From UHGV virus genome UHGV-1357302: 42,329 nt of DNA; one strand, 5' to 3'. Made by a program: the position numbers and the translations under genes. The notes under the pieces are model-generated. The model did no database searches and was not told where the DNA came from. It worked only from the letters and a program-made list of their open reading frames with translations. Position 1 is the stretch's first letter, and every line of letters begins with the position of its first letter. Source of the stretch: a virus. Positions 14,318 through 32,317 of this stretch are shown here, in pieces.

Positions 14318-15712
14318 CTAAAATTTATATTTAATAATTACCTCATCATCAAATAGTTCTATACGTTCAACAAACTCTTTGATGATAAGGATTTTATTTT
14401 CTGTAGTTTCAGTTTCCCAATTAAAAGTTTTTAACGTTTCAAGCTTATTAATTAATGACTCACTTTTGGTACCTTCTAAGTTTGCTATATTGGCAGTTAA
14501 CGCATTTATTTCATTATCAATTTTTTTCATACGTTCATTAAGCATTGTGACATCAAATGTACCATATTGATACAAATCTAGAATTTTTTGCTTTTCATTA
14601 TGCTTCTTGGAAATTTGGTTATTAATAGTGGTGATTTTTGATTTTGTTTTATTTTCAACTTGTTTTAATTCACGTTCGATTTTTTTGAAGTCCAATGATT
14701 TAAGTGAATCTATTACTTTCTTTTCAACTACTTCTTGTCTGAGACTAGGTTGTTTGCAGTTCCAATCTTTTACTAGCGAAGGTAGCATTTTCTTTACTGA
14801 TCTACACATATAATAATTATATCGATATTTTTTGCCTCCTGATACATAACGAAATACTTTAGCTCCGCATTTACCACAATAAGTAATCCCTAATAAAAGC
14901 CCTAATTGATTTCCATGCTGTTCGCCACCTTTTTGAGCCTTTCTGGCAATAATTTCTTGAGCTTTATCGTACATAGATTTATCAATTATAGGTGTGTGAT
15001 GGCCATCATACACTTTGCCGTCCCAACTTATTTTGCCAATATATAATGGATTGGTTAAGGCATATTTTACTATGGTTAATGTTTTTACCTTATCTGGGTA
15101 TTTTGCAACCATACGTTTTGTTATATATTGCTGTCCTTTACCTTGGTTCACATATAAATCATAGATTTCTTGAATAATTTGCGCCTCGTAATCATTGATA
15201 ATTAATTCTCCATCCACATAATCGTAACCTAAGGGAACAATGCCACTTCCGTGATAGTATCCTTGTTTTGCACGTTCTGTTCTTCCCATGTGCATTCTTT
15301 CTGTAATTGTGTCTCGCTCTAATTGTGCAAAAACGGATAGCATTCCTATCGTCGCACGGCCAAAAGGTGTTGATGTGTCAAAGCTTTCTTGCATGCTGAT
15401 AAAGTCTACATTATTTTTTAGAAATACATCTTCAATTAAATACAATGTATTCTTTTGTGAACGTGAAAGCCTGTCTAATTTGTAGACTAGAACCACATCA
15501 ATTTTTTTATTTTGAATATCAGATATCATTTCTTGTAATGCAGGGCGCTCCATTTTTGCTCCTGAAAACCCTGGATCAGTATATACTTTTGCAACTGCCA
15601 TATCTTTTGCTTTTGCAAAAGCTTTTAGTTTATCTGTTTGTGCGGGAATGCTGTATCCTTCCTTGGCTTGTTCCATTGTGGATACACGTATATACAATGC
15701 TGCACGTTTCAT
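14318..15712 (-). CDS. int: large serine recombinase (phage integrase)
   Basis: 464 aa. The N-terminal resolvase catalytic domain is MKRAALYIRVSTMEQAKEGYSIPAQ with the catalytic Ser in YIRVS. A recombinase domain and a Cys-containing zinc-ribbon region (CGKCG...C..C) follow, then a C-terminal coiled coil. It sits at the edge of the lysogeny module. Confidence 0.9.
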   Translation of the reverse strand: MKRAALYIRVSTMEQAKEGYSIPAQTDKLKAFAKAKDMAVAKVYTDPGFSGAKMERPALQEMISDIQNKKIDVVLVYKLDRLSRSQKNTLYLIEDVFLKNNVDFISMQESFDTSTPFGRATIGMLSVFAQLERDTITERMHMGRTERAKQGYYHGSGIVPLGYDYVDGELIINDYEAQIIQEIYDLYVNQGKGQQYITKRMVAKYPDKVKTLTIVKYALTNPLYIGKISWDGKVYDGHHTPIIDKSMYDKAQEIIARKAQKGGEQHGNQLGLLLGITYCGKCGAKVFRYVSGGKKYRYNYYMCRSVKKMLPSLVKDWNCKQPSLRQEVVEKKVIDSLKSLDFKKIERELKQVENKTKSKITTINNQISKKHNEKQKILDLYQYGTFDVTMLNERMKKIDNEINALTANIANLEGTKSESLINKLETLKTFNWETETTENKILIIKEFVERIELFDDEVIIKYKF

Positions 15713-17059: not shown

Positions 17060-17533
17060 TTATTGTAAATTTGTATTTAAAATCATGACTGATAAATCAT
17101 TAAACTCAAAAATTCTTCCTTTATAAAAATGGGTATCACCAAATTTTTGTCGATAATAGGCGAGTACATTTTTTAGCGTTTCAACGTCTACCCCTAAAAA
17201 TTCAGCGCACGTGTAATGATTACTGAATCCTGATTCTGAACACTTAATTAAATCATCTAAAGTGACTAGTTGTTCTAAAGCATATTGTCTAGCTTTTAAT
17301 TCTTGTTTGCGATTTTCTAAACAATCCTGGTTTAATATATCGCCAAACGAGGTATCATGGTGACCAAGTTCTTCAGCTAGCACATTTCTTTTTTCAACTA
17401 GACTCAACGATTTTTCAATATAAATTCTACCATCACGGTACAACCCATAGCATCCAGTATTTTGAAACAAATCTGTTTCAATAACTGGTGCTTTTTTCTG
17501 TACCTCTGACACCAACAGTTCATATTCGTTCAT
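17060..17533 (-). CDS. ImmA/IrrE-family zinc metallopeptidase (anti-repressor protease)
   Basis: 157 aa from ATG 17533, with AGGAG 6 nt upstream and only 4 nt after the XRE stop. HEXXH motif AEELGHHDTSF. The track's longer start would overlap the repressor gene by 70 nt. Confidence 0.75.
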   Translation of the reverse strand: MNEYELLVSEVQKKAPVIETDLFQNTGCYGLYRDGRIYIEKSLSLVEKRNVLAEELGHHDTSFGDILNQDCLENRKQELKARQYALEQLVTLDDLIKCSESGFSNHYTCAEFLGVDVETLKNVLAYYRQKFGDTHFYKGRIFEFNDLSVMILNTNLQ

Positions 17534-17549
17534 AAAATACTCCTGAAAA

Positions 17550-18053
17550 TTATTCTTTATCATCTGATTCATCATCAAAAAGATGTTTACATTCTTTTTG
17601 CTTTCTATCATAATCAGCATCCACTTTATCTAGAAATTTATTAATTTTAAGTTTCTCTTCATCAGTAAATACTTTATCAGGATCTGGTGAATGCGCAGCT
17701 AAAGTATCATATTTTTTCTTGTTAATGTTAACTACATTATTAGAAGATTTATTTTGTTGTGCCAATTGTTCTTTAGCAGTATCATATACAATTTTTTGTC
17801 TTTCGGGTTCTAGTTGGTTGTACAACTCATCGATAGAAGAAATTTGATTTAGTCCAAGAATATATTTAGGATCCAAATCTAAAACAGAAGAAAAGTTTTG
17901 TATTTCATCAAGAGGATATTGATGCTTTAAATTTTCATATCTGGAAAGAGTGGATTTTGGTATGTTTAGTCTTCTTGCCATTTCTGATAATGAAATACCT
18001 AATTCTTTTCTTCTAGCTACTATAATATCCCTGATTTTTTCGTTATTGTTCAT
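17550..18053 (-). CDS. XRE-family HTH repressor (CI/ImmR-like), no S24 peptidase domain
   Basis: 167 aa with RBS AAAGGAGG. N-terminal HTH_3 (LGISLSEMARRLNIPKSTLSRYEN). Acidic C-terminus without an Ala-Gly or Ser-Lys autocleavage signature. Divergent from cro. Confidence 0.8.
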   Translation of the reverse strand: MNNNEKIRDIIVARRKELGISLSEMARRLNIPKSTLSRYENLKHQYPLDEIQNFSSVLDLDPKYILGLNQISSIDELYNQLEPERQKIVYDTAKEQLAQQNKSSNNVVNINKKKYDTLAAHSPDPDKVFTDEEKLKINKFLDKVDADYDRKQKECKHLFDDESDDKE

Positions 18054-24072: not shown

Positions 24073-24084
24073 AAGGTGACGGTA

Positions 24085-25689
24085 ATGAAGCTAAGACCAT
24101 ATCAAGAGGAAGCGCGTTCTGCTGTTCAAAATGAATGGCAGAATAACAAAAAGAAAACATTATTAGTTTTGCCTACAGGCTGTGGTAAAACGATAGTATT
24201 TAGCAAAATCATTGAAGACCGTGTAAGGGCAGGCGAGCGTGTGCTCGTCCTTGCTCATCGTGGTGAATTATTAGATCAAGCCTCTGACAAATTAGAAAAG
24301 TCAACAGGGATAAAAACAGCAACTGAAAAAGCAGAACAGACTAGTCTAGGCAGTTTTTTAAGAGTAGTTGTTGGTTCTGTGCAAACCATGCAACGAGAAA
24401 AACGTTTAAGTAAGTTTCCACCAGATTATTTTGACACTATAGTAGTTGATGAAGCTCACCACTGTATCAGTGAAGGGTATCAACGAGTATTAAAACATTT
24501 TGACAAATCGAATGTGTTAGGCGTAACCGCAACGCCAGATCGTGGAGACATGAGAAATTTAGGTTCTTATTTTGAAAGTTTAGCTTATGAATATTCGCTA
24601 GTACAAGCCATTAAAGAAGGCTATTTATCACCAATAAAGGCCCTAACTATTCCTTTAAAATTAGATTTATCAGGTGTAAAACAACAAACTGGCGATTTCT
24701 CTACTAAAGATTTAGGAACGGCATTAGATCCATACTTGGAACAAATTGCTGAAGAAATGGTTAAACACTGCATAAACAGGAAAACAGTTGTTTTTTTACC
24801 ATTAGTTAAAACTTCCAAGAAATTTAGAGACATTTTAAATAGTAAAGGTTTTAGAACTGCAGAAGTAAATGGAGATTCAAAGGATCGTCAAGAAATTTTA
24901 GAAGATTTCGACAATGATAAATATAACGTACTCTGTAACTCAATGTTACTAACAGAAGGCTGGGATTGTCCTTCGGTGGATTGTGTAGTCGTTTTAAGAC
25001 CAACAAAAGTTCGATCCTTATATTCTCAAATGATAGGACGTGGCACACGTTTATTTCCTGGAAAGGAAGAATTATTGCTTTTAGATTTTTTATGGCATAC
25101 AGAAAGACATGAGCTATGCCATCCAGCGCATTTGATAGCAAATAGTGATGAAGTAGCTAAAAAAATGACTGAAAATATTGAAGAAGCAGGTGCCCAAGGT
25201 TTCGCTATGGATATTGAAGAAGCTGAAGTTCAAGCAGAAAAAGATGTTATTGCAGAAAGAGAAGAAGCATTAGCAAAGCAGCTTGAAGAAATGCGTAAGC
25301 GTAAACGAAAATTAGTTGATCCTCTTCAATTTGAAATGTCTATCCAAGCGGAAGATTTAACTGGTTATGTTCCTAGTTTTGGATGGGAAATGGGGCCGCC
25401 TTCAAGTCAACAAGTTTCAGCATTAGAAAAATTAGGAATATTACCAGATGCAATTGATAACGCTGGTAAAGCTAGTCTAATACTTGATCGATTACAAAAA
25501 AGAAAAGAAGCTGGGTTGGCAACACCTAAGCAAATCAGATTATTGGAACAACGTGGATTTAAGAATGTCGGTACATGGTCCTTTGATGGTGCAAGTAAAA
25601 TGATTAATCGCATTGCTGCAAATGGATGGAGATTACCAAATGGTATTAATCCAAAAACATATCAAGAAGGTGGTACGCATGCCGTTTAA
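24085..25689 (+). CDS. SF2 DEAD/DEAH-box helicase
   Basis: ATG 24085 with GAAGGTGA RBS. Motif I LVLPTGCGKT, motif II VVDEAHH, motif III TATPDR, motif VI QMIGRGTRL. A C-terminal extension of about 170 aa. Confidence 0.8.
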   Translation: MKLRPYQEEARSAVQNEWQNNKKKTLLVLPTGCGKTIVFSKIIEDRVRAGERVLVLAHRGELLDQASDKLEKSTGIKTATEKAEQTSLGSFLRVVVGSVQTMQREKRLSKFPPDYFDTIVVDEAHHCISEGYQRVLKHFDKSNVLGVTATPDRGDMRNLGSYFESLAYEYSLVQAIKEGYLSPIKALTIPLKLDLSGVKQQTGDFSTKDLGTALDPYLEQIAEEMVKHCINRKTVVFLPLVKTSKKFRDILNSKGFRTAEVNGDSKDRQEILEDFDNDKYNVLCNSMLLTEGWDCPSVDCVVVLRPTKVRSLYSQMIGRGTRLFPGKEELLLLDFLWHTERHELCHPAHLIANSDEVAKKMTENIEEAGAQGFAMDIEEAEVQAEKDVIAEREEALAKQLEEMRKRKRKLVDPLQFEMSIQAEDLTGYVPSFGWEMGPPSSQQVSALEKLGILPDAIDNAGKASLILDRLQKRKEAGLATPKQIRLLEQRGFKNVGTWSFDGASKMINRIAANGWRLPNGINPKTYQEGGTHAV

Positions 25690-26005
25690 AAACAAACAAA
25701 TTGAACGGTTAGTTTATATAATAGAAAACATTCCTGATTGGGAAAATAATCCTACACTTGTTGAAGAGGTAAAAAAGCTACGTAAGCCTTCGCAAGAAGG
25801 CATTCATAAGTCGAAGACTAGAATAAGAAACAGAGCAATGGCCAGATATCGTTTATATGAAAATGGTAGTTATGTTACTACCCAGTCGATTAATATGCTA
25901 TCGGAATACACTGGTCTTTCAGAAATATCATTATATCAAATGCTGGATGTTGAGAGAGTAAACCGTGATGGTGTGCGTAGAAAAATTGAAAGATTGAAAA
26001 AATAA
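25679..26005 (+). CDS. hypothetical protein with C-terminal HTH-like segment (108 aa)
   Basis: Start at MPFKNKQ with GAAGGTGG RBS, overlapping the helicase stop by 11 nt. The track's start overlaps by 77 nt. Basic region KSKTRIRNRAMARYR. Confidence 0.45.
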   Translation: MPFKNKQIERLVYIIENIPDWENNPTLVEEVKKLRKPSQEGIHKSKTRIRNRAMARYRLYENGSYVTTQSINMLSEYTGLSEISLYQMLDVERVNRDGVRRKIERLKK

Positions 26006-26061
26006 CCAGAAGGGAGTGGAGTTTGTGGCCACAGTAAAGAATTCTTTACTCCTTTGAAATT

Positions 26062-26715
26062 ATGAAACTAACAACAGAAAAAATAAATGAACTGCTAGGT
26101 GTTGATGATGCCTACAAAGCGCCAGAAGCACTCATGAATATATTACTAAGTCGTGATAAGCGAGAAATCGTGTTTAACAAATTTTTAGAAATAGAAAATG
26201 ACTTAACTTTCGATTGGTTTCACGAATATTTTCAAGACGAACACGCTGATCGGAAAGTTAAGAAACAAGATTTTACGCCAAATTCTATTGGCGAAGTGAT
26301 TGCAAAAATCGTAGGACCTGGAAGCGGATTGACACATGAAGTAGCTTCTGGGACAGGTGGAATGATCATACAAAAATGGCGAGCAGACAGACTATCTATT
26401 GGTTTTTTTGAATATAAACCATCAATGACTTTTTACGATTTAGAGGAGTTATCTGATAGAACAATTCCGTTTCTGCTGTTCAATCTTGCTATTCGTGGGA
26501 TGAACGCCACCGTAGTCCACGGTGATTCGCTAGACAGAAAAATAAAACAGATTTACTTTTTACAAAATTCAAAAGATGATTCGTTGGCTTTTAGCGATGT
26601 AAATGTTATGCCGCACAGCGATGTGGTCACAAGAGAGTTTCAAGTCAAAGAATGGATAGAAGAAGCTATTGATCACATCGAAAGTCACATCGTGTTAGGA
26701 GGAGAAAACGAATGA
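26062..26715 (+). CDS. HsdM-like N6-adenine methyltransferase-fold protein lacking the NPPF/Y catalytic motif (pseudo-methyltransferase)
   Basis: Motif X/I: QDFTPNSIGEVIAKIV...HEVASGTGGMII (compare GQFFTP...DPAAGTAGFL in HsdM). HsdM-type helix FLLFNLAIRGMNATVVHGDSL (compare LALMNCLLHDIEG...GNTL). Where NPPF is expected the sequence reads FLQNSKDD. Only 217 aa. The stop overlaps the recombinase ATG (ATGA). Confidence 0.5.
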   Translation: MKLTTEKINELLGVDDAYKAPEALMNILLSRDKREIVFNKFLEIENDLTFDWFHEYFQDEHADRKVKKQDFTPNSIGEVIAKIVGPGSGLTHEVASGTGGMIIQKWRADRLSIGFFEYKPSMTFYDLEELSDRTIPFLLFNLAIRGMNATVVHGDSLDRKIKQIYFLQNSKDDSLAFSDVNVMPHSDVVTREFQVKEWIEEAIDHIESHIVLGGENE

Positions 26716-27656
26716 GCAAACGTCCCAGACTTTTTGCTGGCTATTTTTTAGAATGGATTGAAACTTACAAAGTCGGTGCAATTAGAGATATCTCAGTTAG
26801 TAAATATTATATAGCCCATAAACACCTTACTGAAATTTGCCCTGATTTAACGATAGATAAATTAGATAGAAAGGCTTATCAAAGCATTCTTAATGAATAC
26901 GCTCTGACACATGAGCGGCAAACAACAATGGATTTCCATCACCAAATTGGCAGCTGTGTAAGAGATATGTATCACGAAGGACTAATTAAACGTGATCCAA
27001 CCTACAAAGCGATTATCAAAGGAATACCGCCGAGACCAAAAAAGAAAAAATTCTTGCAAAAAGGCGAACTACAAAAGCTGTTGAAATCACTAGAACTTGG
27101 CGAAGGGATAAATATGGATTGGTTTATTTTACTGGTTGCAAAAACAGGAATGCGCTTTGCGGAAGCCATTGCGTTAACACCAGCTGATTTTGATTGGACC
27201 AGAAATACCGTCAGCATTAATAAAACATTGAACTATAAAAATTCTACAATGTTTTTTCAGGATACGAAAAACAAAAGTTCTGTTAGAACGATAAGCATTG
27301 ATTGGCAAATAGTTGGTCAGTTTAAACCGCTCATTGAAAATTTACCTCAAGATGAATTGATTTTTGTAAATCGAGATGAAAAGACAGGCAAATATAAACG
27401 AATTTTCAATTCAACATACAATTCCCACCTGATCAGAAAATGCAAAGAATCAGGAATCACTGTCATCACAATGCACGGACTTAGACACACGCATGCAAGT
27501 ATTTTACTCGCTGACGGGGTATCAACTCATAGTATAGCTAAGCGTCTAGGCCATTCAAGCGTGACTACTACTCAAGAAACATATATGCATATCATTGATG
27601 AATTGCAGAGTAAAGATGATGAAAAGATTCTTGGTGCATTGATGCAACTTTCCTAG
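26712..27656 (+). CDS. tyrosine site-specific recombinase (phage-integrase family), second recombinase of the element
   Basis: 314 aa. Box II HGLRHTHASILLADG and a catalytic Tyr in LGHSSVTTTQETYMHI. N-terminal SAM-like core-binding domain. No arm-binding domain. Translationally coupled to the HsdM-like ORF. Confidence 0.8.
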   Translation: MSKRPRLFAGYFLEWIETYKVGAIRDISVSKYYIAHKHLTEICPDLTIDKLDRKAYQSILNEYALTHERQTTMDFHHQIGSCVRDMYHEGLIKRDPTYKAIIKGIPPRPKKKKFLQKGELQKLLKSLELGEGINMDWFILLVAKTGMRFAEAIALTPADFDWTRNTVSINKTLNYKNSTMFFQDTKNKSSVRTISIDWQIVGQFKPLIENLPQDELIFVNRDEKTGKYKRIFNSTYNSHLIRKCKESGITVITMHGLRHTHASILLADGVSTHSIAKRLGHSSVTTTQETYMHIIDELQSKDDEKILGALMQLS

Positions 27657-27668
27657 TGTGGTGATTTC

Positions 27669-28241
27669 ATGTATAGAAAATGGACAGAAGACGAACTAGT
27701 GTATTTAGAGTATTTCGTTTTTGAAAACGATACTCAGCTAATTGAAGCTTCTAAGTACTTGAATAGAAGCATCAATGCGATTAGAAAAAAATTATGTAAA
27801 ATGCGAAAAGAAGATGATTTTAGATGCTACATGCACCGTCTATGGTCTGAAAAAGAGGATGAGTTCTTAAAAAAGCACTATCTATCTATGAAAAATAAGT
27901 ATATAGCTGATAGGTTAAATCGTACAGTTGGAGCTGTTGAGTTTAGGGCTAAAAAATTAGGGCTGACAAAGCACAAGAAGATTAAAGAGCTAGATACAGA
28001 AATCCGACGTTTGATTGACGAAGATTACTACCTCAGCCAAATATGCACAAAATTAAACATTAAGATGTCGTCTCTAATCGCACATTGCCAACGTGAAAAA
28101 ATCCCTTATAAAAAAATGCCTAGAACTGAGTATAAAAACTATGGTAAACACGTTTGGAATGTGCAAGATAAAGTGAGATTCCAAGAATATTTAAGCAAAC
28201 AAGAGTTGAAAGCGAGTGAAGAAGATGATTCCAAAGTTTAG
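27669..28241 (+). CDS. hypothetical protein with tandem W-x-E/D-rich (Myb/SANT-like) helix repeats
   Basis: WTEDELVYLEYF... and WSEKEDEFLKKHY... units are each followed by basic helices (IRKKLCKMRK; RAKKLGL). Confidence 0.45.
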   Translation: MYRKWTEDELVYLEYFVFENDTQLIEASKYLNRSINAIRKKLCKMRKEDDFRCYMHRLWSEKEDEFLKKHYLSMKNKYIADRLNRTVGAVEFRAKKLGLTKHKKIKELDTEIRRLIDEDYYLSQICTKLNIKMSSLIAHCQREKIPYKKMPRTEYKNYGKHVWNVQDKVRFQEYLSKQELKASEEDDSKV

Positions 28242-28584
28242 AGCAAGAGATGAACGAGGAAATTGGCATGTTGGACTTCTAACTTTTATGTTTGGCCAGT
28301 ATGCCATCGTAAATGAAGTAGATGAAAACACGGTTTATTTGATTGATAAGGAAACAGTCGGACAGTCAACAGGCTTGAAAGACAAGAACGGTATGGATAT
28401 TTCCGAGGGTGATATTGGCTGGGATGACCATCAAGAAGTGCACGGACAAGTAATTTTTGAAAATGGTGCATTTAAATATGAGTGGGACAATATATCTGAG
28501 GATTTATTTGAAGCTACCGACGATATTGAGATTGTTGGGAATATCTACGAGAATCTAGAACTGTTGGAGGGAATCGGATCATGA
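28225..28584 (+). CDS. YopX-family protein
   Basis: MIPKFRARDERGNWHVG...GDIGWDD matches the typical YopX N-terminus (FRAWDK.NG.W..G...). The track's GTG start is 9 nt earlier. Confidence 0.6.
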   Translation: MIPKFRARDERGNWHVGLLTFMFGQYAIVNEVDENTVYLIDKETVGQSTGLKDKNGMDISEGDIGWDDHQEVHGQVIFENGAFKYEWDNISEDLFEATDDIEIVGNIYENLELLEGIGS

Positions 28585-28717
28585 CAATGATAGAAAAAAT
28601 GGATAAGCTGCTAAAAAAGTTAGAAAATTCTCCTGATGAACTAGAAAAATTTATGAAGGAGTTTAAGCGAAGCAGCAAATGTCAAAGTATCAGAGATGTT
28701 GATCAGGAGGAAGAAGA

Positions 28718-28912
28718 ATGAATAGTTCAGAAGCAATAGCTAAAATACAAGAATTACAAGATATCTACGGTGGCATTGAAATCTTGGTAAATGCTCAAGG
28801 ATCAGACAACGGCTTTTTCAAAATTATCACCAGTGTTGAAATTCAAGAAGGCATGTGTGATGAAGATGGGGGGTTTATTGACGAGAGAGTTATTTTAATC
28901 TCATGTGAATAG
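28718..28912 (+). CDS. hypothetical protein (64 aa)
   Basis: RBS GGAGGAAGAAGAATG. Confidence 0.4.
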   Translation: MNSSEAIAKIQELQDIYGGIEILVNAQGSDNGFFKIITSVEIQEGMCDEDGGFIDERVILISCE

Positions 28913-29816: not shown

Positions 29817-29990
29817 ATGAAAACAGCTGAAGAAGAAATCAATGAATTACTCAGCAAATACAATTTTGATTTAGCGGTTTTAAAGGATATTAGCTATAGA
29901 TTATCTTGCTGTAGAGATGAAGCATATGCAAGACAGCAACTGCGATATTTAAAGAATCAAATTATCATGGGATTTGCAACTGAAAAATAA
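29817..29990 (+). CDS. small hypothetical protein (57 aa)
   Basis: Sequence is MKTAEEEINELLSKYNFDLAVLKDISYRLSCCRDEAYARQQLRYLKNQIIMGFATEK. Two tiny hydrophobic ORFs (29623-29709 and 29728-29820) precede it. Coordinates are accurate only to within a couple of nt. Confidence 0.3.
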   Translation: MKTAEEEINELLSKYNFDLAVLKDISYRLSCCRDEAYARQQLRYLKNQIIMGFATEK

Positions 29991-30012
29991 AAAAAGAGAG
30001 CTGAACATACAA

Positions 30013-32232
30013 ATGGAGAACAAGTTAGATTTAATTGAGTTACTAGAATACATTGACCCAGCTTCTCTTGGTTACCAGGAGTGGGTCAATGTTGGAATGG
30101 CGCTAAAACAAGAAGGGTACACAGCTGTCGATTGGGATCAATGGAGCCAATCAGATAGCCGATATCACTCAGGAGAATGTTTTAAAAAATGGGAGTCTTT
30201 TCAAGGAACCTCTTCACCAATTACGGGTGCTACAATTACACAGTTGGCCAAAGAAAACGGATGGACTTCGCCATTCAAATCAGGAGATGGTGGCCATGAG
30301 CTGGATTGGAATGATACTTTACAAAAAGATGACCTGGTTATCATTGACCGAAATTGGATTGAAGGAAAAGAAATTCAGGAACCTAAGAAGTGGGAGCCAG
30401 CGAAAGAAATTATTCGCTATTTAGAAACATTGTTTGAACCGTCTGAAACAGTGGCTTACAATGTCCAGTCGTGGCAAGACGAAGATGGAAAGTGGAAACC
30501 TTCTAACAAAGGTGCATATGACAGAACTGCCGGTCAGTTAATCGAAGAATTGACCCATTGCGGGGATGACATTGGAGCAGTACTAGGGGACTATAATGAA
30601 GAAGCTGGGGCTTGGATTCGTTTTAATCCTATGGATGGAAAAGGCGTAAAAAATGACAATGTAACAGAATTTAGATATGCATTAGTAGAGTCTGACAATA
30701 TGGGGCTTGAACAACAAAATGCTATCATGCGAGAACTAGAGCTTCCTATTGCTGCCATGCTGTATAGCGGAAAGAAATCAATACATGCTATCGTTCGAGT
30801 AGATGCAGATAACTATGCTGAATATAGAAAGCGTGTTGATTACTTATATGATGTCTGCAAAAAGAATGGGTTAACGAATGATAATCAAAATAGAAATCCT
30901 TCTCGTTTAAGCCGAATGCCTGGTGTACTGCGTGGAGACAAAAAACAATTTATTATCGATACCAATTTAGGAAAATCTACTTGGGACGAGTGGAAAGAAT
31001 GGATTGAAAGCGTTAATGACGATTTGCCTGATCCAGAAAGCCTAGAAGATTTGTTCGCAAAACCGATTGAATTAGCACCAGAACTAATTAAAGGCATGCT
31101 AAGACAAGGCCATAAGATGCTTATAGCTGGTCCATCAAAAGCCGGAAAGTCCTTTTCGTTGATACAATTAGCTATTGCAATTGCTGAAGGTCGCCAATGG
31201 TTCGGTTTTGATTGCGAAAAAGGGAAGGTATTATATGTAAACCTTGAGTTAGATGAACGGTCCGCAAAAGTTCGTTTTGTTGATATCTATGAAAAATTAG
31301 GTCAGGGCCACTCCAATGTATCAAATATTGATATATGGAATTTACGTGGAAAGACAAGTCCAATGGATAAATTGGCGCCTAAGTTGATTAGACGTGCACA
31401 GAAATCTAATTACATGGCTGTGATTATTGATCCAATCTATAAAGTTCTGACTGGTGATGAAAATAGCGCCCATGAAATGGCTAAGTTTACCAACCAGTTC
31501 GACAAAATAGCTACGGAATTAGATTGTGCAGTAATCTATTGCCATCATCATTCAAAAGGATCGCAAGGAGGTAAAAATTCAATTGATCGTTCAAGTGGTA
31601 GCGGAGTATTTGCTAGGGATCCCGATGCGATTTTAGATTTAATTGAGTTGCCTATTACAGAAGATAGGTATATGGCTTTAGAGAATGAAGCGATTTGTCA
31701 GACTTATGAACAAGCAATAAAAAAATATAATCCATCATATAACGCCATTAGCCAAGATGATATATTTAGTACAAAACAAATGGGAATGCACTTAATGAGT
31801 GCAATTAAATCTCAAACTATTTTACAGGAAGTTGAATTAGATAGACAAAAAGCAGTTCGTGCAGCTCGGCAATGCACGGCTTGGAGAATTGATGGTACGC
31901 TGCGGGAATTCCCTAAGTTTGATCCTATCAATGCATGGTTCAAATATCCTATTCATGTCCTCGATGATTCATTGAAAGATATTTCGCTAGAAGACAATCC
32001 TAAAGAAAACTGGAAAAAAGGTGTTAGTAAGTCTAATCAATCGAGAAGTGAAAAATCTAAGCAAGAACTAGAAACAGCGTTCAGTGCATTGTCTATGGAT
32101 GGTGGACCAGTAGAAGTTAGTGATATGATTGAATATTTAGATATTACCAAACAATCGGTATACAACAGAGTAAAAAAACATAGTGGATTTAAAATAGAGG
32201 GTGGTTTTTTAAGTAAAATAAACTCTGACTAG
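30013..32232 (+). CDS. replicative primase-helicase (primase/polymerase-like N-terminus, P4/D5-type P-loop NTPase centre, C-terminal HTH)
   Basis: ATG MENKLDLIELL (the track's earlier start is a TTG). Walker A LIAGPSKAGKSFSL. Walker B MAVIIDPIYK followed by CHHHSKG. C-terminal HTH ITKQSVYNRVKK. The origin-like repeats follow directly downstream. Confidence 0.8.
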   Translation: MENKLDLIELLEYIDPASLGYQEWVNVGMALKQEGYTAVDWDQWSQSDSRYHSGECFKKWESFQGTSSPITGATITQLAKENGWTSPFKSGDGGHELDWNDTLQKDDLVIIDRNWIEGKEIQEPKKWEPAKEIIRYLETLFEPSETVAYNVQSWQDEDGKWKPSNKGAYDRTAGQLIEELTHCGDDIGAVLGDYNEEAGAWIRFNPMDGKGVKNDNVTEFRYALVESDNMGLEQQNAIMRELELPIAAMLYSGKKSIHAIVRVDADNYAEYRKRVDYLYDVCKKNGLTNDNQNRNPSRLSRMPGVLRGDKKQFIIDTNLGKSTWDEWKEWIESVNDDLPDPESLEDLFAKPIELAPELIKGMLRQGHKMLIAGPSKAGKSFSLIQLAIAIAEGRQWFGFDCEKGKVLYVNLELDERSAKVRFVDIYEKLGQGHSNVSNIDIWNLRGKTSPMDKLAPKLIRRAQKSNYMAVIIDPIYKVLTGDENSAHEMAKFTNQFDKIATELDCAVIYCHHHSKGSQGGKNSIDRSSGSGVFARDPDAILDLIELPITEDRYMALENEAICQTYEQAIKKYNPSYNAISQDDIFSTKQMGMHLMSAIKSQTILQEVELDRQKAVRAARQCTAWRIDGTLREFPKFDPINAWFKYPIHVLDDSLKDISLEDNPKENWKKGVSKSNQSRSEKSKQELETAFSALSMDGGPVEVSDMIEYLDITKQSVYNRVKKHSGFKIEGGFLSKINSD

Positions 32233-32234
32233 CG

Positions 32235-32317
32235 TAAATATCTATTTAGCTATTTAAAGCTATTTACAAAACGTAGTATCCGTTAAATATCTATTTAGCT
32301 ATTTAAAGCTATTTACA
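32235..32317. repeat. two 34-nt direct repeats (32235-32268 and 32284-32317), each with three CTATTTA iterons; candidate replication origin
   Basis: taaatatctatttagctatttaaagctatttaca is repeated exactly, with a 15-nt spacer. Located immediately 3' of the primase gene. Confidence 0.6.

What the first reader, a model, noticed from the sequence alone, without database searches (positions are those of the whole stretch)
26006..27656. Catalytically degenerate HsdM-like methyltransferase fragment translationally coupled to a second (tyrosine) recombinase inside the replication module
The 217-aa protein keeps the HsdM/gamma-class N6-adenine methyltransferase S-adenosylmethionine-binding motifs (DFTP...EVASGTGGMI and the NLAIRGM...HGDSL helix). 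Where the catalytic NPPF/Y tetrad should be, it reads QNSKDD, and it lacks the rest of the catalytic domain. Its stop overlaps (ATGA) the start of a 314-aa tyrosine recombinase (HGLRH...Y), although the phage already has a serine integrase. The pair is preceded by a 45-nt nested hairpin (26006-26050; aagggagt...gtggccac...agtaaagaattctttact...actccttt) whose 3' arm sequesters the region where an RBS should be. Hypotheses: an HsdM decoy that poisons host type I restriction complexes (anti-restriction); a recombinase-driven switch related to the tyrosine-recombinase and hsdS shufflons of type I restriction-modification (RM) loci; or a small mobile cassette nested in the phage. I am not aware of a described system with exactly this composition.
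Basis: partly seen in the sequence, partly recalled or inferred. Interest (0 to 1): 0.7.

Follow-up and report, generated by a model that had tools for sequence, protein, structure and literature searches.

The report
Phage module built from restriction-system parts
An Enterococcus phage carries a conserved three-gene block whose first two genes descend from bacterial type I restriction-modification systems: half of the methylase subunit, and the recombinase that normally shuffles the specificity genes. This suggests an undescribed way for phages to interfere with that defence, but the function is untested.

Summary
A 217-aa HsdM-like ORF (26062-26715) overlaps by ATGA a 314-aa tyrosine recombinase (26712-27656). 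Both lie between helicase and primase genes of an E. faecalis temperate phage that also has a serine integrase.

The 217-aa protein is not a fragment. It is a full-length member of a conserved phage family (phrog_1071, about 210-245 aa) under purifying selection. It keeps the S-adenosylmethionine (SAM)-binding motifs X and I-III and lacks motifs IV-VIII. Full-length phage relatives of 422-438 aa carry a true NPPF/Y about 25 residues further on, so "QNSKDD replaces NPPF" is wrong in detail.

The recombinase is catalytically intact. It belongs to a phage clade sister to recombinases embedded between inverted hsdS genes of type I R-M loci (51-61% identity). Their conserved 15-mer core site is absent from the phage.

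A Myb/HTH-repeat gene (27669-28241) completes a three-gene block. The block recurs in Enterococcus, Listeria, Pisciglobus and Lacticaseibacillus phages.

The upstream hairpin is a shared leader of methyltransferase-slot genes and pairs a Shine-Dalgarno-like sequence with its complement.

Function is inferred, not shown. I favour interference with host type I R-M. No description was found in the literature searched.

The parts
26000..26065 (+). Conserved leader of the 'methyltransferase slot'. It holds a Shine-Dalgarno-like AAGGGAG (26010-16). The 12-nt 5' arm (26010-26021) pairs with CTTTACTCCTTT (26044-26055). Inner palindromes are GTGGCCAC (26025-32) and AGTAAAGAATTCTTTACT (26033-50). A 10-codon mini-ORF runs from GTG 26025 to TGA 26057 and ends 4 nt before the SD-less ATG at 26062.
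   Evidence: Sequence. The same leader, at about 86-97% identity, precedes different genes: EFC-1 gp19, the phiFL3A gp26 C5 methyltransferase, and a 246-aa C5 methyltransferase in L012 and relatives. Three variants keep 8-bp palindromes (GTGGCCAC, GGTCGACC, GCGGCCGC). RNAalifold gives a 12-bp stem with one compensatory pair, UA to CG. The single-sequence fold has z = -1.76.
26062..26715 (+). MTL: a 217-aa stand-alone SAM-binding half of an HsdM-type methyltransferase (phrog_1071). Motif X is QDFTP (aa 69-73), motif I is ASGTGG (95-100), motif II is EE (128-129) and motif III is HGD (153-155). A beta-hairpin follows (160-182, with invariant N169), then a family-specific tail (about 183-217). 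There are no motifs IV-VIII and no HsdS-binding C-terminus.
26712..27656 (+). Rec: a 314-aa simple tyrosine recombinase with a core-binding SAM-like domain and a catalytic domain, and no arm-binding domain. Catalytic residues are R148, K186, H255-x-x-R258, H281 and Y291. It has its own AGGAGGAG Shine-Dalgarno sequence inside the 3' end of MTL.
   Evidence: It falls in a phage clade sister to the hsdS-inverton recombinases. pN/pS is 0-0.03. It is no more than 39% identical to canonical prophage integrases.
27669..28241 (+). A 190-aa Myb/SANT-like HTH-repeat protein (phrog_323, 'transcriptional regulator, D5-like'). It is the third gene of the conserved block and a probable DNA-binding accessory of Rec.
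   Evidence: phrog_323 E 1.7e-30. It follows the recombinase in B025 (gp44), B054 (gp65), L070, L093 and L095. The analogous gene in phage R9.1 has Myb_DNA-binding repeats. pN/pS is 0-0.15.
14318..15712 (-). Context only: the phage's large serine integrase, beside the lysogeny module. It is the presumed principal integrase.
   Evidence: phrog_95 E 5.9e-141. A metalloprotease (ImmA-like) gene lies at 17060-17620.

Best explanation
**What it is (shown).** This is a conserved three-gene accessory block of the early region of temperate phages of Lactobacillales and Listeria. It occupies the slot where related phages carry DNA methyltransferases.
- Gene 1 (MTL) is the SAM-binding N-terminal half of a phage HsdM-type methyltransferase. 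It is capped by a family-specific tail and lacks the catalytic motif IV and everything after it, so it cannot be a canonical N6-adenine methyltransferase.
- Gene 2 (Rec) is an intact, arm-less tyrosine recombinase. Its clade is sister to the recombinases that sit between inverted hsdS genes of type I R-M 'epigenetic invertons'.
- Gene 3 is a Myb/HTH-repeat DNA-binding protein.

**How it most likely works (inferred).** The block is a counter-defence module aimed at type I R-M or related SAM-dependent systems. MTL binds SAM or SAH. It acts as a non-catalytic M-like subunit together with a DNA-binding partner. That partner is an HsdS-like domain in natural fusions, and Rec or the HTH protein here. 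Rec, guided by the HTH protein, recombines a DNA target that is not in the module itself. The most plausible target is an hsdS-type core site in the host chromosome.

**Expression (inferred).** The genes sit among early genes on the same strand. They follow a leader in which a Shine-Dalgarno-like sequence is paired with its complement. A short upstream ORF ends at or near the SD-less start codon, which suggests hairpin-gated, reinitiation-coupled translation.
For: **Identity and ancestry**
- MTL matches phrog_1071 end to end, and 691 homologues are 210-245 aa.
- Motifs X and I-III are invariant.
- The first 168 aa of the 438-aa NPPY-containing methyltransferase of E. faecalis phage 1_EfsPF36 align at 54% identity to MTL residues 1-184 (E 2.6e-51). 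That phage sits in the same genomic slot, and there the methyltransferase is followed by a small HsdS-like gene.
- In phage genomes the short form outnumbers the long form about 10 to 1. Profile hits split the same way.

**Link to DNA recognition**
- Four cluster representatives fuse the short form, tail included, to a domain homologous to that HsdS-like protein (36% identity, E 4e-16). Two of the three fusions whose contigs could be read lie beside phage packaging genes.

**Recombinase**
- 80 genomic relatives at 51-61% identity were found. Flanking ORFs are HsdS in 48 of 70 and 34 of 73 cases, and HsdR in 13 of 70 and 7 of 73.
- These loci have inverted repeats of 120-210 nt, plus an exact 15-mer TGGGAACAGCGTAAG in 47 loci.
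- In the neighbour-joining tree, all phage-clade members sit beside MTL and/or the HTH gene and none beside HsdS.
- In the Amphibacillus prophage the order is Rec, HTH, then a full-length MTL-type methyltransferase. The association therefore survives rearrangement.

**Counter-defence context**
- The slot holds C5 and other methyltransferases in relatives.
- In B054 the recombinase lies three genes downstream of an AcrIIA9-family gene.

**Functional genes.** pN/pS is 0-0.15 for all three.

**Host targets exist**
- An E. faecalis R-M locus with a 59%-identical recombinase carries the core variant TGGGAACTGTGTAAG three times.
- Pisciglobus halotolerans DSM 27630 holds both a prophage module (L093) and an R-M inverton (L114).
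Against: - No experiment or direct test bears on function.
- Most MTL carriers (Lactococcus, Streptococcus) have no recombinase next to it. MTL therefore works without Rec.
- B054 has Rec and the HTH gene without MTL.
- Scrambling a host hsdS gene would not remove HsdS protein already made. The benefit to an infecting phage is therefore unclear.
- MTL lacks the C-terminal region through which HsdM binds HsdS (established knowledge of type I enzymes). Simple subunit poisoning is therefore not obvious.
- The residues conserved in MTL are mostly ligand-binding ones. That fits an enzyme or a SAM binder as well as a mimic.
- No recombination site was identified for Rec.
- The tree is neighbour-joining without bootstrap support.
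- Only the best 80 loci per scan were seen.
Confidence: 0.4

Rival explanations
1. The genes are functionally independent, and adjacency reflects only shared ancestry or a shared accessory slot. MTL alone is an anti-defence or regulatory SAM/SAH-binding protein. Rec with the HTH protein serves the phage's own DNA, for example circularisation, multimer resolution (Cre/lox-like or Xer-like), or gene regulation.
For: MTL occurs without Rec in most carriers. Rec and the HTH gene occur without MTL in B054. The overlap and spacing between MTL and Rec are not conserved. Rec is an arm-less 'simple' recombinase like Cre or Xer.
Against: Nearly every phage-clade Rec sits next to an MTL-type gene, across at least five genera and even after gene-order change. 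Both genes trace to type I R-M components. No repeated candidate site was found in the phage.
Confidence: 0.3
2. MTL is a genuine enzyme with a non-canonical active site. It could be a methyltransferase for DNA (with an HsdS-like or HTH partner supplying recognition) or for another substrate, or a SAM-consuming enzyme.
For: Many polar residues outside the SAM motifs are invariant: R34, E35, N141, R145, N148, N169, S178, N181 and E207. The model is compact and confident. Natural fusions to an HsdS-like domain lie where phage orphan methyltransferases usually sit, next to HNH and terminase genes.
Confidence: 0.15
3. The MTL gene is a decaying remnant (pseudogene) of a phage orphan type I methyltransferase, and the recombinase is an alternative or principal integrase.
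For: Truncated remnants do exist. L031-L033 keep only MTL residues 1-132, fused to a downstream ORF. A full-length version sits in the same slot in phage 1_EfsPF36.
Against: The short form has a conserved length and a conserved specific tail across genera. pN/pS is 0.07-0.15. Rec lacks an arm-binding domain, lies far from the lysogeny module, and is at most 39% identical to canonical integrases. The phage has a serine integrase at the usual place, and B025 has its own tyrosine integrase as well.
Confidence: 0.03

Closest known systems
Recombinases of type I R-M 'epigenetic invertons' (hsdS shufflons). Six invertase clades are described in PMC7672463. One example is LsrA of the Limosilactobacillus reuteri LreRMII locus (hsdR-hsdSA-lsrA-hsdSB-hsdM; PMC6122466).
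   Same: An arm-less tyrosine recombinase of about 308-316 aa with a full catalytic set. It is 51-57% identical to members flanked by inverted hsdS genes, including L. reuteri, L. salivarius pMP118, Listeria and Enterococcus loci.
   Different: The phage clade is never next to hsdS. Instead it sits next to a half-HsdM and a Myb/HTH gene. The 15-mer core and the long inverted repeats of the R-M loci are absent. PsrA/CreX is smaller at 31.2 kDa (PMC7096588). Which published clade the sister group corresponds to was not determined.
HsdM / gamma-class N6-adenine methyltransferases, and phage orphan HsdM-like methyltransferases (for example the 438-aa protein of Enterococcus phage 1_EfsPF36, CP124927)
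   Same: The N-terminal helices and motifs X, I, II and III are shared. About 168-184 residues are homologous at 54% identity to the family consensus.
   Different: There is no motif IV (NPPF/Y), no motifs V-VIII and no C-terminal HsdS-binding region. A 35-aa family-specific tail takes their place.
Known anti-type-I-restriction proteins: Ocr and ArdA (DNA mimics), lambda Ral and Rac Lar (modulators of the modification activity), and phage T3 SAM lyase
   Same: An early-expressed phage accessory gene in a slot devoted to escaping restriction. It may act on type I enzymes or on their cofactor SAM (inference).
   Different: The fold and ancestry are unrelated. This protein derives from the target enzyme itself and comes with a recombinase. 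No anti-restriction activity has been shown.
Second, non-integrase recombinases of phages, such as P1 Cre/lox
   Same: A simple tyrosine recombinase encoded away from the lysogeny module, in a phage that has another integrase.
   Different: No lox-like repeated site was found. The relationship is to hsdS invertases, and the gene is linked to an HsdM-derived gene.

Membership tests
Gamma-class N6-adenine DNA methyltransferase (Pfam N6_Mtase PF02384 / HsdM) | SAM-binding motifs X (FxTP), I (GxGG), II (acidic residue) and III (D) | tested here: met
   QDFTP, GTGG, EE and HGD are invariant or nearly invariant in 120 homologues. Pfam positions 9-120 match. PDB HsdM chains match.
Gamma-class N6-adenine DNA methyltransferase (Pfam N6_Mtase PF02384 / HsdM) | Catalytic motif IV, (N/D/S)PP(F/Y/W), after strand beta-4 | tested here: not met
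   The motif is absent from the protein and from every real ORF of the window. Full-length relatives have it about 25 residues beyond the point where MTL diverges.
Gamma-class N6-adenine DNA methyltransferase (Pfam N6_Mtase PF02384 / HsdM) | Complete class I methyltransferase fold (motifs V-VIII) and C-terminal HsdS-binding helices | tested here: not met
phrog_1071 (short phage 'DNA methyltransferase' family) | End-to-end profile match and a length of about 220 aa | tested here: met
   E 2.1e-100, residues 1-212 against profile 1-211 of 223. The best 120 of 691 homologues are nearly all 210-245 aa.
Tyrosine recombinase (PF00589) | Catalytic R-K-H-x-x-R-H/W-Y set and domain match | tested here: met
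   PF00589 E 4.4e-25. R148, K186, H255, R258, H281 and Y291 are conserved in 41 relatives.
hsdS-inverton (type I R-M shufflon) recombinase | Sequence clade shared with recombinases embedded in type I R-M loci | tested here: inconclusive
   It is sister to that clade, not nested within it, at 51-57% identity. The tree is neighbour-joining without bootstrap support.
hsdS-inverton (type I R-M shufflon) recombinase | The gene lies between or next to inverted hsdS genes | tested here: not met
   There is no HsdS-like gene in the window. None of the phage-clade loci has one next to Rec.
hsdS-inverton (type I R-M shufflon) recombinase | Inverted repeats or a core site (TGGGAACAGCGTAAG type) flanking an invertible segment | tested here: not met
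   There are no matches at up to 3 mismatches and no long inverted repeats. One 13-of-15 match to the E. faecalis variant lies inside the Rec gene. Its chance expectation is 0.09 and it is not conserved elsewhere.
Principal phage integrase | Arm-binding N-terminal domain, and a position next to attP and the repressor module | tested here: not met
   The protein is 314 aa with only a SAM-like core-binding domain. It lies in the replication region, 11 kb from the lysogeny module, which has its own serine integrase.
Anti-restriction protein | Demonstrated relief of restriction | not testable with these tools
   This needs plating assays on hosts with and without hsd genes.

The most novel reading that the evidence does not exclude
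Phages have domesticated the type I R-M 'epigenetic inverton' machinery. A phage-encoded sister of the hsdS invertases would act in trans on the conserved core sites inside host hsdS genes. It would be targeted by a Myb/HTH protein and work with an HsdM-derived, SAM-binding, non-catalytic subunit. The result would be to scramble, delete or re-phase the host's restriction specificity. This could serve as counter-defence. It could also match the methylation of phage progeny to phase-variant neighbours.
Probability: 0.15. Interest if true: 0.85.

Novelty: new variant of a known kind. Interest (0 to 1): 0.62.

Why it matters
Phase-variable type I R-M systems are widespread in host-associated bacteria. 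They are studied as host-controlled epigenetic switches and as phage barriers.

A phage lineage carries the sister recombinase and keeps it linked to a truncated, SAM-binding derivative of the methylase subunit. This would be the first sign that phages have co-opted that switching machinery.

It also re-labels a large family (hundreds of clusters, annotated 'DNA methyltransferase' or 'N-6 DNA methylase') as proteins that cannot be canonical methylases. That affects methylome and defence/anti-defence annotation of Lactococcus, Streptococcus, Listeria and Enterococcus phages, which matter for dairy fermentation and phage therapy.

The hypothesis is directly testable with existing E. faecalis and Listeria (B025) phage-host pairs.

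Tried and rejected
1. **Simple pseudogene or split methyltransferase.** I searched the window for the C-terminal half, for an HsdS-like gene and for in-ORF NPPF/Y. None was found.
2. **Flanking repeats that would mark a self-mobile cassette or an invertible segment.** Nothing convincing appeared within 4 kb or in the whole window.
3. **The hsdS-type core site in phage DNA.** It is absent. A single 13-of-15 match inside Rec is probably chance.
4. **Pneumophage SpSL1 cds16.** This 'N6 methylase with no detectable m6A' (PMC6755750) looked like a possible characterised homologue. It is not homologous. Its 180-aa 'recombinase' is also only marginally similar.
5. **Deletion variants L031-L033 as a possible footprint of Rec activity.** The junction shows no site-specific signature.
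6. **Listeria phage records MZ361825-7.** They show the three genes in reversed order on one strand. The records consist of abutting CDS and look artificial, so I did not use them.
7. **'Phage' contigs OR846613 and OR846726.** They carry the recombinase without MTL, but they are host R-M loci.
8. **Literature searches.** Eight searches found no description of the short family's function or of phage-borne hsdS-type recombinases.
9. **Assigning the sister clade to one of the six published invertase clades.** This was not possible without reference sequences. PsrA is smaller.
Full report
**Setting.** The window is a temperate Enterococcus faecalis phage or prophage related to EFC-1 and the phiFL phages. 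The region of interest lies in the early, rightward-transcribed replication region. It sits between a DEAD/ResIII helicase gene (24076-25689) and a primase gene (29974-32232). A large serine integrase (14318-15712, minus strand; phrog_95, E 6e-141) sits next to the lysogeny genes.

**Observation.** ORF 26062-26715 (217 aa) and ORF 26712-27656 (314 aa) overlap by ATGA. The recombinase also has its own AGGAGGAG Shine-Dalgarno sequence inside the end of the first gene.

**The 217-aa protein (MTL).**
- It matches Pfam N6_Mtase only over profile positions 9-120 of 311.
- It matches PADLOC's type I methyltransferase model (E 9e-11).
- It matches solved HsdM chains over motifs X to II (3khk, E 2e-4).

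**The 314-aa protein (Rec).**
- It matches Phage_integrase (E 4e-25).
- It has a weak N-terminal SAM-like core-binding domain.
- It keeps R148, K186, H255, R258, H281 and Y291, all conserved in 41 relatives.

**MTL is not a fragment.**
- It matches PHROG 1071 from end to end (E 2e-100, 1-212 against 1-211 of 223).
- A search of 5.8 billion proteins found 691 homologues. Nearly all of the best 120 are 210-245 aa.
- tblastn finds it in 212 phage records from Lactococcus, Streptococcus, Lactobacillus, Leuconostoc, Listeria and Staphylococcus.
- In alignments of 26 and 120 members, several features are invariant or nearly so. These are QDFTP (motif X), GxG(G) (motif I), EELSDR..PFLLFNL.IRG.N (motif II region) and HGD (motif III). 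Others are N169, S178, N181 and E207.
- Among E. faecalis copies pN/pS is 0.07-0.15.
- An AlphaFold2 model is confident (pLDDT 88.8, pTM 0.87).
- MTL therefore has the N-terminal helices and roughly the first four strands of the class I fold, and then something else.

**Where the catalytic motif went.** The loci fetched contain full-length relatives.
- In E. faecalis phage 1_EfsPF36 the same slot holds a 438-aa protein. Its first 168 residues are 54% identical to the MTL consensus (hhalign E 2.6e-51, covering MTL residues 1-184). It continues into a complete N6_Mtase domain with VIMNPPY (Pfam 11-307 of 311, E 3e-67).
- That gene is followed, again with an ATGA overlap, by a 146-aa HsdS-like gene (Methylase_S, E 2.7e-4).
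- An Amphibacillus prophage has a 422-aa relative that contains both YQISN and a true LMNPPF about 25 residues later. YQISN aligns to MTL's YF(I/L)QN169.
- The QN(S)KDD stretch is therefore part of a lineage-specific beta-hairpin between motifs III and IV. It is not a degenerate NPPF.
- MTL diverges from the long form just after that hairpin and ends in a 35-residue tail found only in the short form.
- A profile search of 1.84 billion representatives shows the same split. Short proteins match the whole profile, and proteins of 400-606 aa match only positions 3-170. There are 633 hits at E<=1e-3 and 121 at E<=1e-30.
- In phage genomes the short form outnumbers the long form about 10 to 1 (22 of 238 records are full-length).

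**A Rosetta-stone clue.** Four cluster representatives (P0248, P0256, P0264, P0287; 365-391 aa) consist of the short form, tail included, fused to a C-terminal domain. That domain is homologous to the small HsdS-like protein of phage 1_EfsPF36 (36% identity, E 4e-16; and 29%, E 3e-11). Contigs were read for three of them. Two lie beside phage packaging genes, next to HNH and terminase genes, and the third contig was too short to tell. The non-catalytic short form therefore still works with a type-I-style DNA-recognition domain.

**The recombinase.** Canonical prophage integrases are at most 39% identical and longer. A scan of one genome per species returned 80 loci at 51-61% identity. They come from Bacillota, Bacteroidales, Bifidobacterium, Coriobacteriia, Akkermansia and Histophilus.
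- The nearest flanking ORFs are HsdS (Pfam Methylase_S) in 48 of 70 upstream and 34 of 73 downstream cases, mostly on the opposite strand downstream.
- They are HsdR in 13 of 70 and 7 of 73 cases.
- These loci show the classic inverton anatomy. They have inverted repeats of 120-210 nt and short repeats around TGGGAACAGCGTAAGTTAGG.
- The exact 15-mer TGGGAACAGCGTAAG occurs in 47 loci, usually as an inverted pair around the recombinase, and in none of the phage loci.
- Annotated examples agree. L. salivarius pMP118 has an N-6 DNA methylase, a restriction subunit S and a site-specific integrase.
- The hsdSA-lsrA-hsdSB arrangement of L. reuteri LreRMII, with observed TRD shuffling, is described in PMC6122466. 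The general phenomenon and six invertase clades are described in PMC7672463.
- In a neighbour-joining tree the phage-borne proteins form a clade sister to the R-M-embedded ones. Members come from E. faecalis, Listeria B025 and B054, Pisciglobus, Trichococcus, Amphibacillus, a Lactococcus MAG and Lacticaseibacillus.
- Every phage-clade member sits beside MTL and/or the HTH gene, and none beside HsdS. The tree has no bootstrap support, so 'sister' is provisional.

**The block is a trio.** The gene after the recombinase (27669-28241, 190 aa) is phrog_323, a protein of repeated Myb/SANT-like HTH units.
- It follows the recombinase in B025 (gp42-gp43-gp44), B054 (gp64-gp65, without MTL), L070, Pisciglobus and Amphibacillus.
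- An analogous Myb-repeat protein follows it in Lacticaseibacillus phage R9.1.
- In about 20 E. faecalis prophage contigs the three genes are 96-100% identical at the protein level, while the flanks differ. The block is therefore exchanged as a unit.
- pN/pS is 0-0.03 for Rec and 0-0.15 for the HTH gene.
- MTL followed by Rec recurs in at least five lineages, with MTL at 52-62% and Rec at 48-61% identity.
- In Amphibacillus the order is Rec, HTH, then the full-length MTL-type methyltransferase.
- Conversely, most MTL genes (Streptococcus, Lactococcus) have no recombinase beside them.
- The dependence therefore runs one way. This recombinase clade almost always comes with an MTL-type gene, but MTL does not need the recombinase.

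**The slot and the hairpin.** In relatives the same position holds methyltransferases:
- EFC-1 gp19;
- the phiFL3A gp26 C5 methyltransferase;
- a 246-aa C5 methyltransferase immediately upstream of MTL in most E. faecalis copies;
- the HsdM-like plus HsdS-like pair in 1_EfsPF36.

Each slot gene is preceded by a leader of about 60 nt (window 26000-26065).
- Three variants differ in sequence but all keep an 8-bp palindrome (GTGGCCAC, GGTCGACC, GCGGCCGC) and a second palindrome (around GAATTC or AAGCTT).
- All keep an outer 12-bp stem that pairs AAAGGAGUGGAG with CUUUACUCCUUU. One pair changes compensatorily (U-A to C-G in three sequences, U-G in two).
- The 5' arm is a strong Shine-Dalgarno-like sequence, and the real ATG has none.
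- A GTG or TTG 6-9 nt after it opens a short, non-conserved ORF. That ORF ends 4 nt before the ATG in the window, overlaps it in a second variant, or runs into the main frame in a third.
- I read this as a translational gate with reinitiation coupling. It is also a conserved junction at which cassettes are swapped by homologous recombination. Both readings are inference.
- On its own the window's hairpin is not statistically unusual (z = -1.76).

**Search for a recombination target.**
- There are no convincing direct or inverted repeats around the block or in the whole window.
- The R-M core 15-mer is absent at up to 3 mismatches.
- The E. faecalis R-M locus fetched here (L008, recombinase 59% identical) uses the variant TGGGAACTGTGTAAG three times.
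- The window has one 13-of-15 match to it inside the recombinase gene (26948-26962). Its chance expectation is 0.09, it is not conserved in other phage-clade loci, and it is probably noise.
- Hosts of these phages do carry the sister R-M invertons. Pisciglobus halotolerans DSM 27630 has both a prophage module and an inverton (L093, L114).

**Interpretation.**
- Shown: the identity, ancestry, conservation and linkage of the three genes, and the absence of catalytic methyltransferase motifs.
- Inferred: the function.

The best-supported reading is a counter-defence module directed at type I R-M or related SAM-dependent defences. It rests on four observations:
- the block sits in the methyltransferase slot;
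- both leading genes derive from type I R-M parts;
- MTL's conserved residues are the SAM-binding ones;
- MTL is found fused to an HsdS-like domain.

How Rec contributes is open. The most interesting possibility is trans action on host hsdS cores.

Rivals are listed here in decreasing order of weight:
- The genes act independently. MTL would be a stand-alone SAM binder, and Rec with the HTH protein would be a phage DNA resolvase or regulator.
- MTL is a non-canonical enzyme.
- MTL is a pseudogene and Rec an alternative integrase. This reading is essentially excluded.

**Novelty.** The genes are annotated in databases as 'DNA methyltransferase' and 'site-specific integrase'. Eight full-text searches found no account of the short family's nature, of phage-borne relatives of hsdS invertases, or of the trio. 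I rate it a new variant of known kinds, built from type I R-M inverton components and repurposed in phages. Interest is moderate to high because it yields a concrete, testable hypothesis.

Noticed in passing
window 32235-32268 and 32284-32317: A perfect 34-nt direct repeat (TAAATATCTATTTAGCTATTTAAAGCTATTTACA), 49 nt apart, lies just downstream of the primase gene. It may be an origin or iteron element.
   Followed up: no
L097-L172 (type I R-M loci from many phyla): The exact 15-mer TGGGAACAGCGTAAG (encoding WEQRK of HsdS) is conserved at the nucleotide level in 47 loci from Bacillota, Bacteroidales, Coriobacteriia and others. It usually occurs as inverted pairs around the recombinase. It is a likely core or crossover site of this invertase clade.
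   Followed up: partly
window 26948-26962 (inside the recombinase gene): TGGCAGCTGTGTAAG matches 13 of 15 positions of the E. faecalis R-M inverton core TGGGAACTGTGTAAG. Chance expectation is about 0.09. It is not conserved in other phage-clade loci.
   Followed up: yes
L031-L033 (IMG/VR E. faecalis prophage contigs), corresponding to window 26448-28909: These are deletion variants. MTL codons 1-132 are fused to the end of the 64-aa ORF (window 28718-28912), which removes Rec, the HTH gene and YopX. The block is therefore dispensable in some phages. The junction has no site-specific signature.
   Followed up: yes
L012 2704-3444, and the same gene in about 15 E. faecalis loci; absent from the window: A very short (246-247 aa) C5-cytosine methyltransferase-like gene (FDSGNG..SPPCESWS..IIENP) sits between two leader copies immediately upstream of MTL in most relatives. 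The window lacks it.
   Followed up: partly
window 26025-26050 and leader variants in L003, L012, L021, L026: The leader's inner palindromes coincide with classic restriction-site sequences. GGTCGACC contains SalI, GCGGCCGC is NotI, GAATTC is EcoRI, AAGCTT is HindIII, and GTGGCCAC contains GGCC. All lie upstream of methyltransferase genes. This may be coincidence, or these may be operator-like sites for a controller protein.
   Followed up: no
OR846613.1 (L008) and OR846726.1 (L009), 'UNVERIFIED_ORG' phage records: These contigs, deposited as Enterococcus and Listeria phage, carry a complete type I R-M inverton (HsdM, two HsdS genes, recombinase). They are probably host chromosomal DNA.
   Followed up: partly
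MZ361825-MZ361827 (Listeria phages vB_LmoS_P9, C996, P7; L005): The annotated CDS abut one another with no intergenic DNA. The three module genes appear in reversed order on the same strand. The records look like concatenated CDS and are unreliable for synteny.
   Followed up: no
P0248, P0256, P0264, P0287 (metagenomic phage contigs L175-L178): These are natural fusions of the short, motif-IV-less MTL domain to an HsdS-like domain. In two of the three fusions whose contigs were read, the gene lies next to HNH and terminase genes.
   Followed up: yes
L006 (Listeria phage B054) 1972-5626: In B054 the recombinase and HTH pair (gp64, gp65) lies three genes downstream of an AcrIIA9-family anti-CRISPR gene and a PcfJ-domain gene. 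This is an anti-defence neighbourhood.
   Followed up: no
window 25613-26005: The 130-aa ORF upstream (phrog_12808) matches its family only from residue 23. Its listed TTG start overlaps the helicase gene by 77 nt, so the true start is probably later.
   Followed up: no
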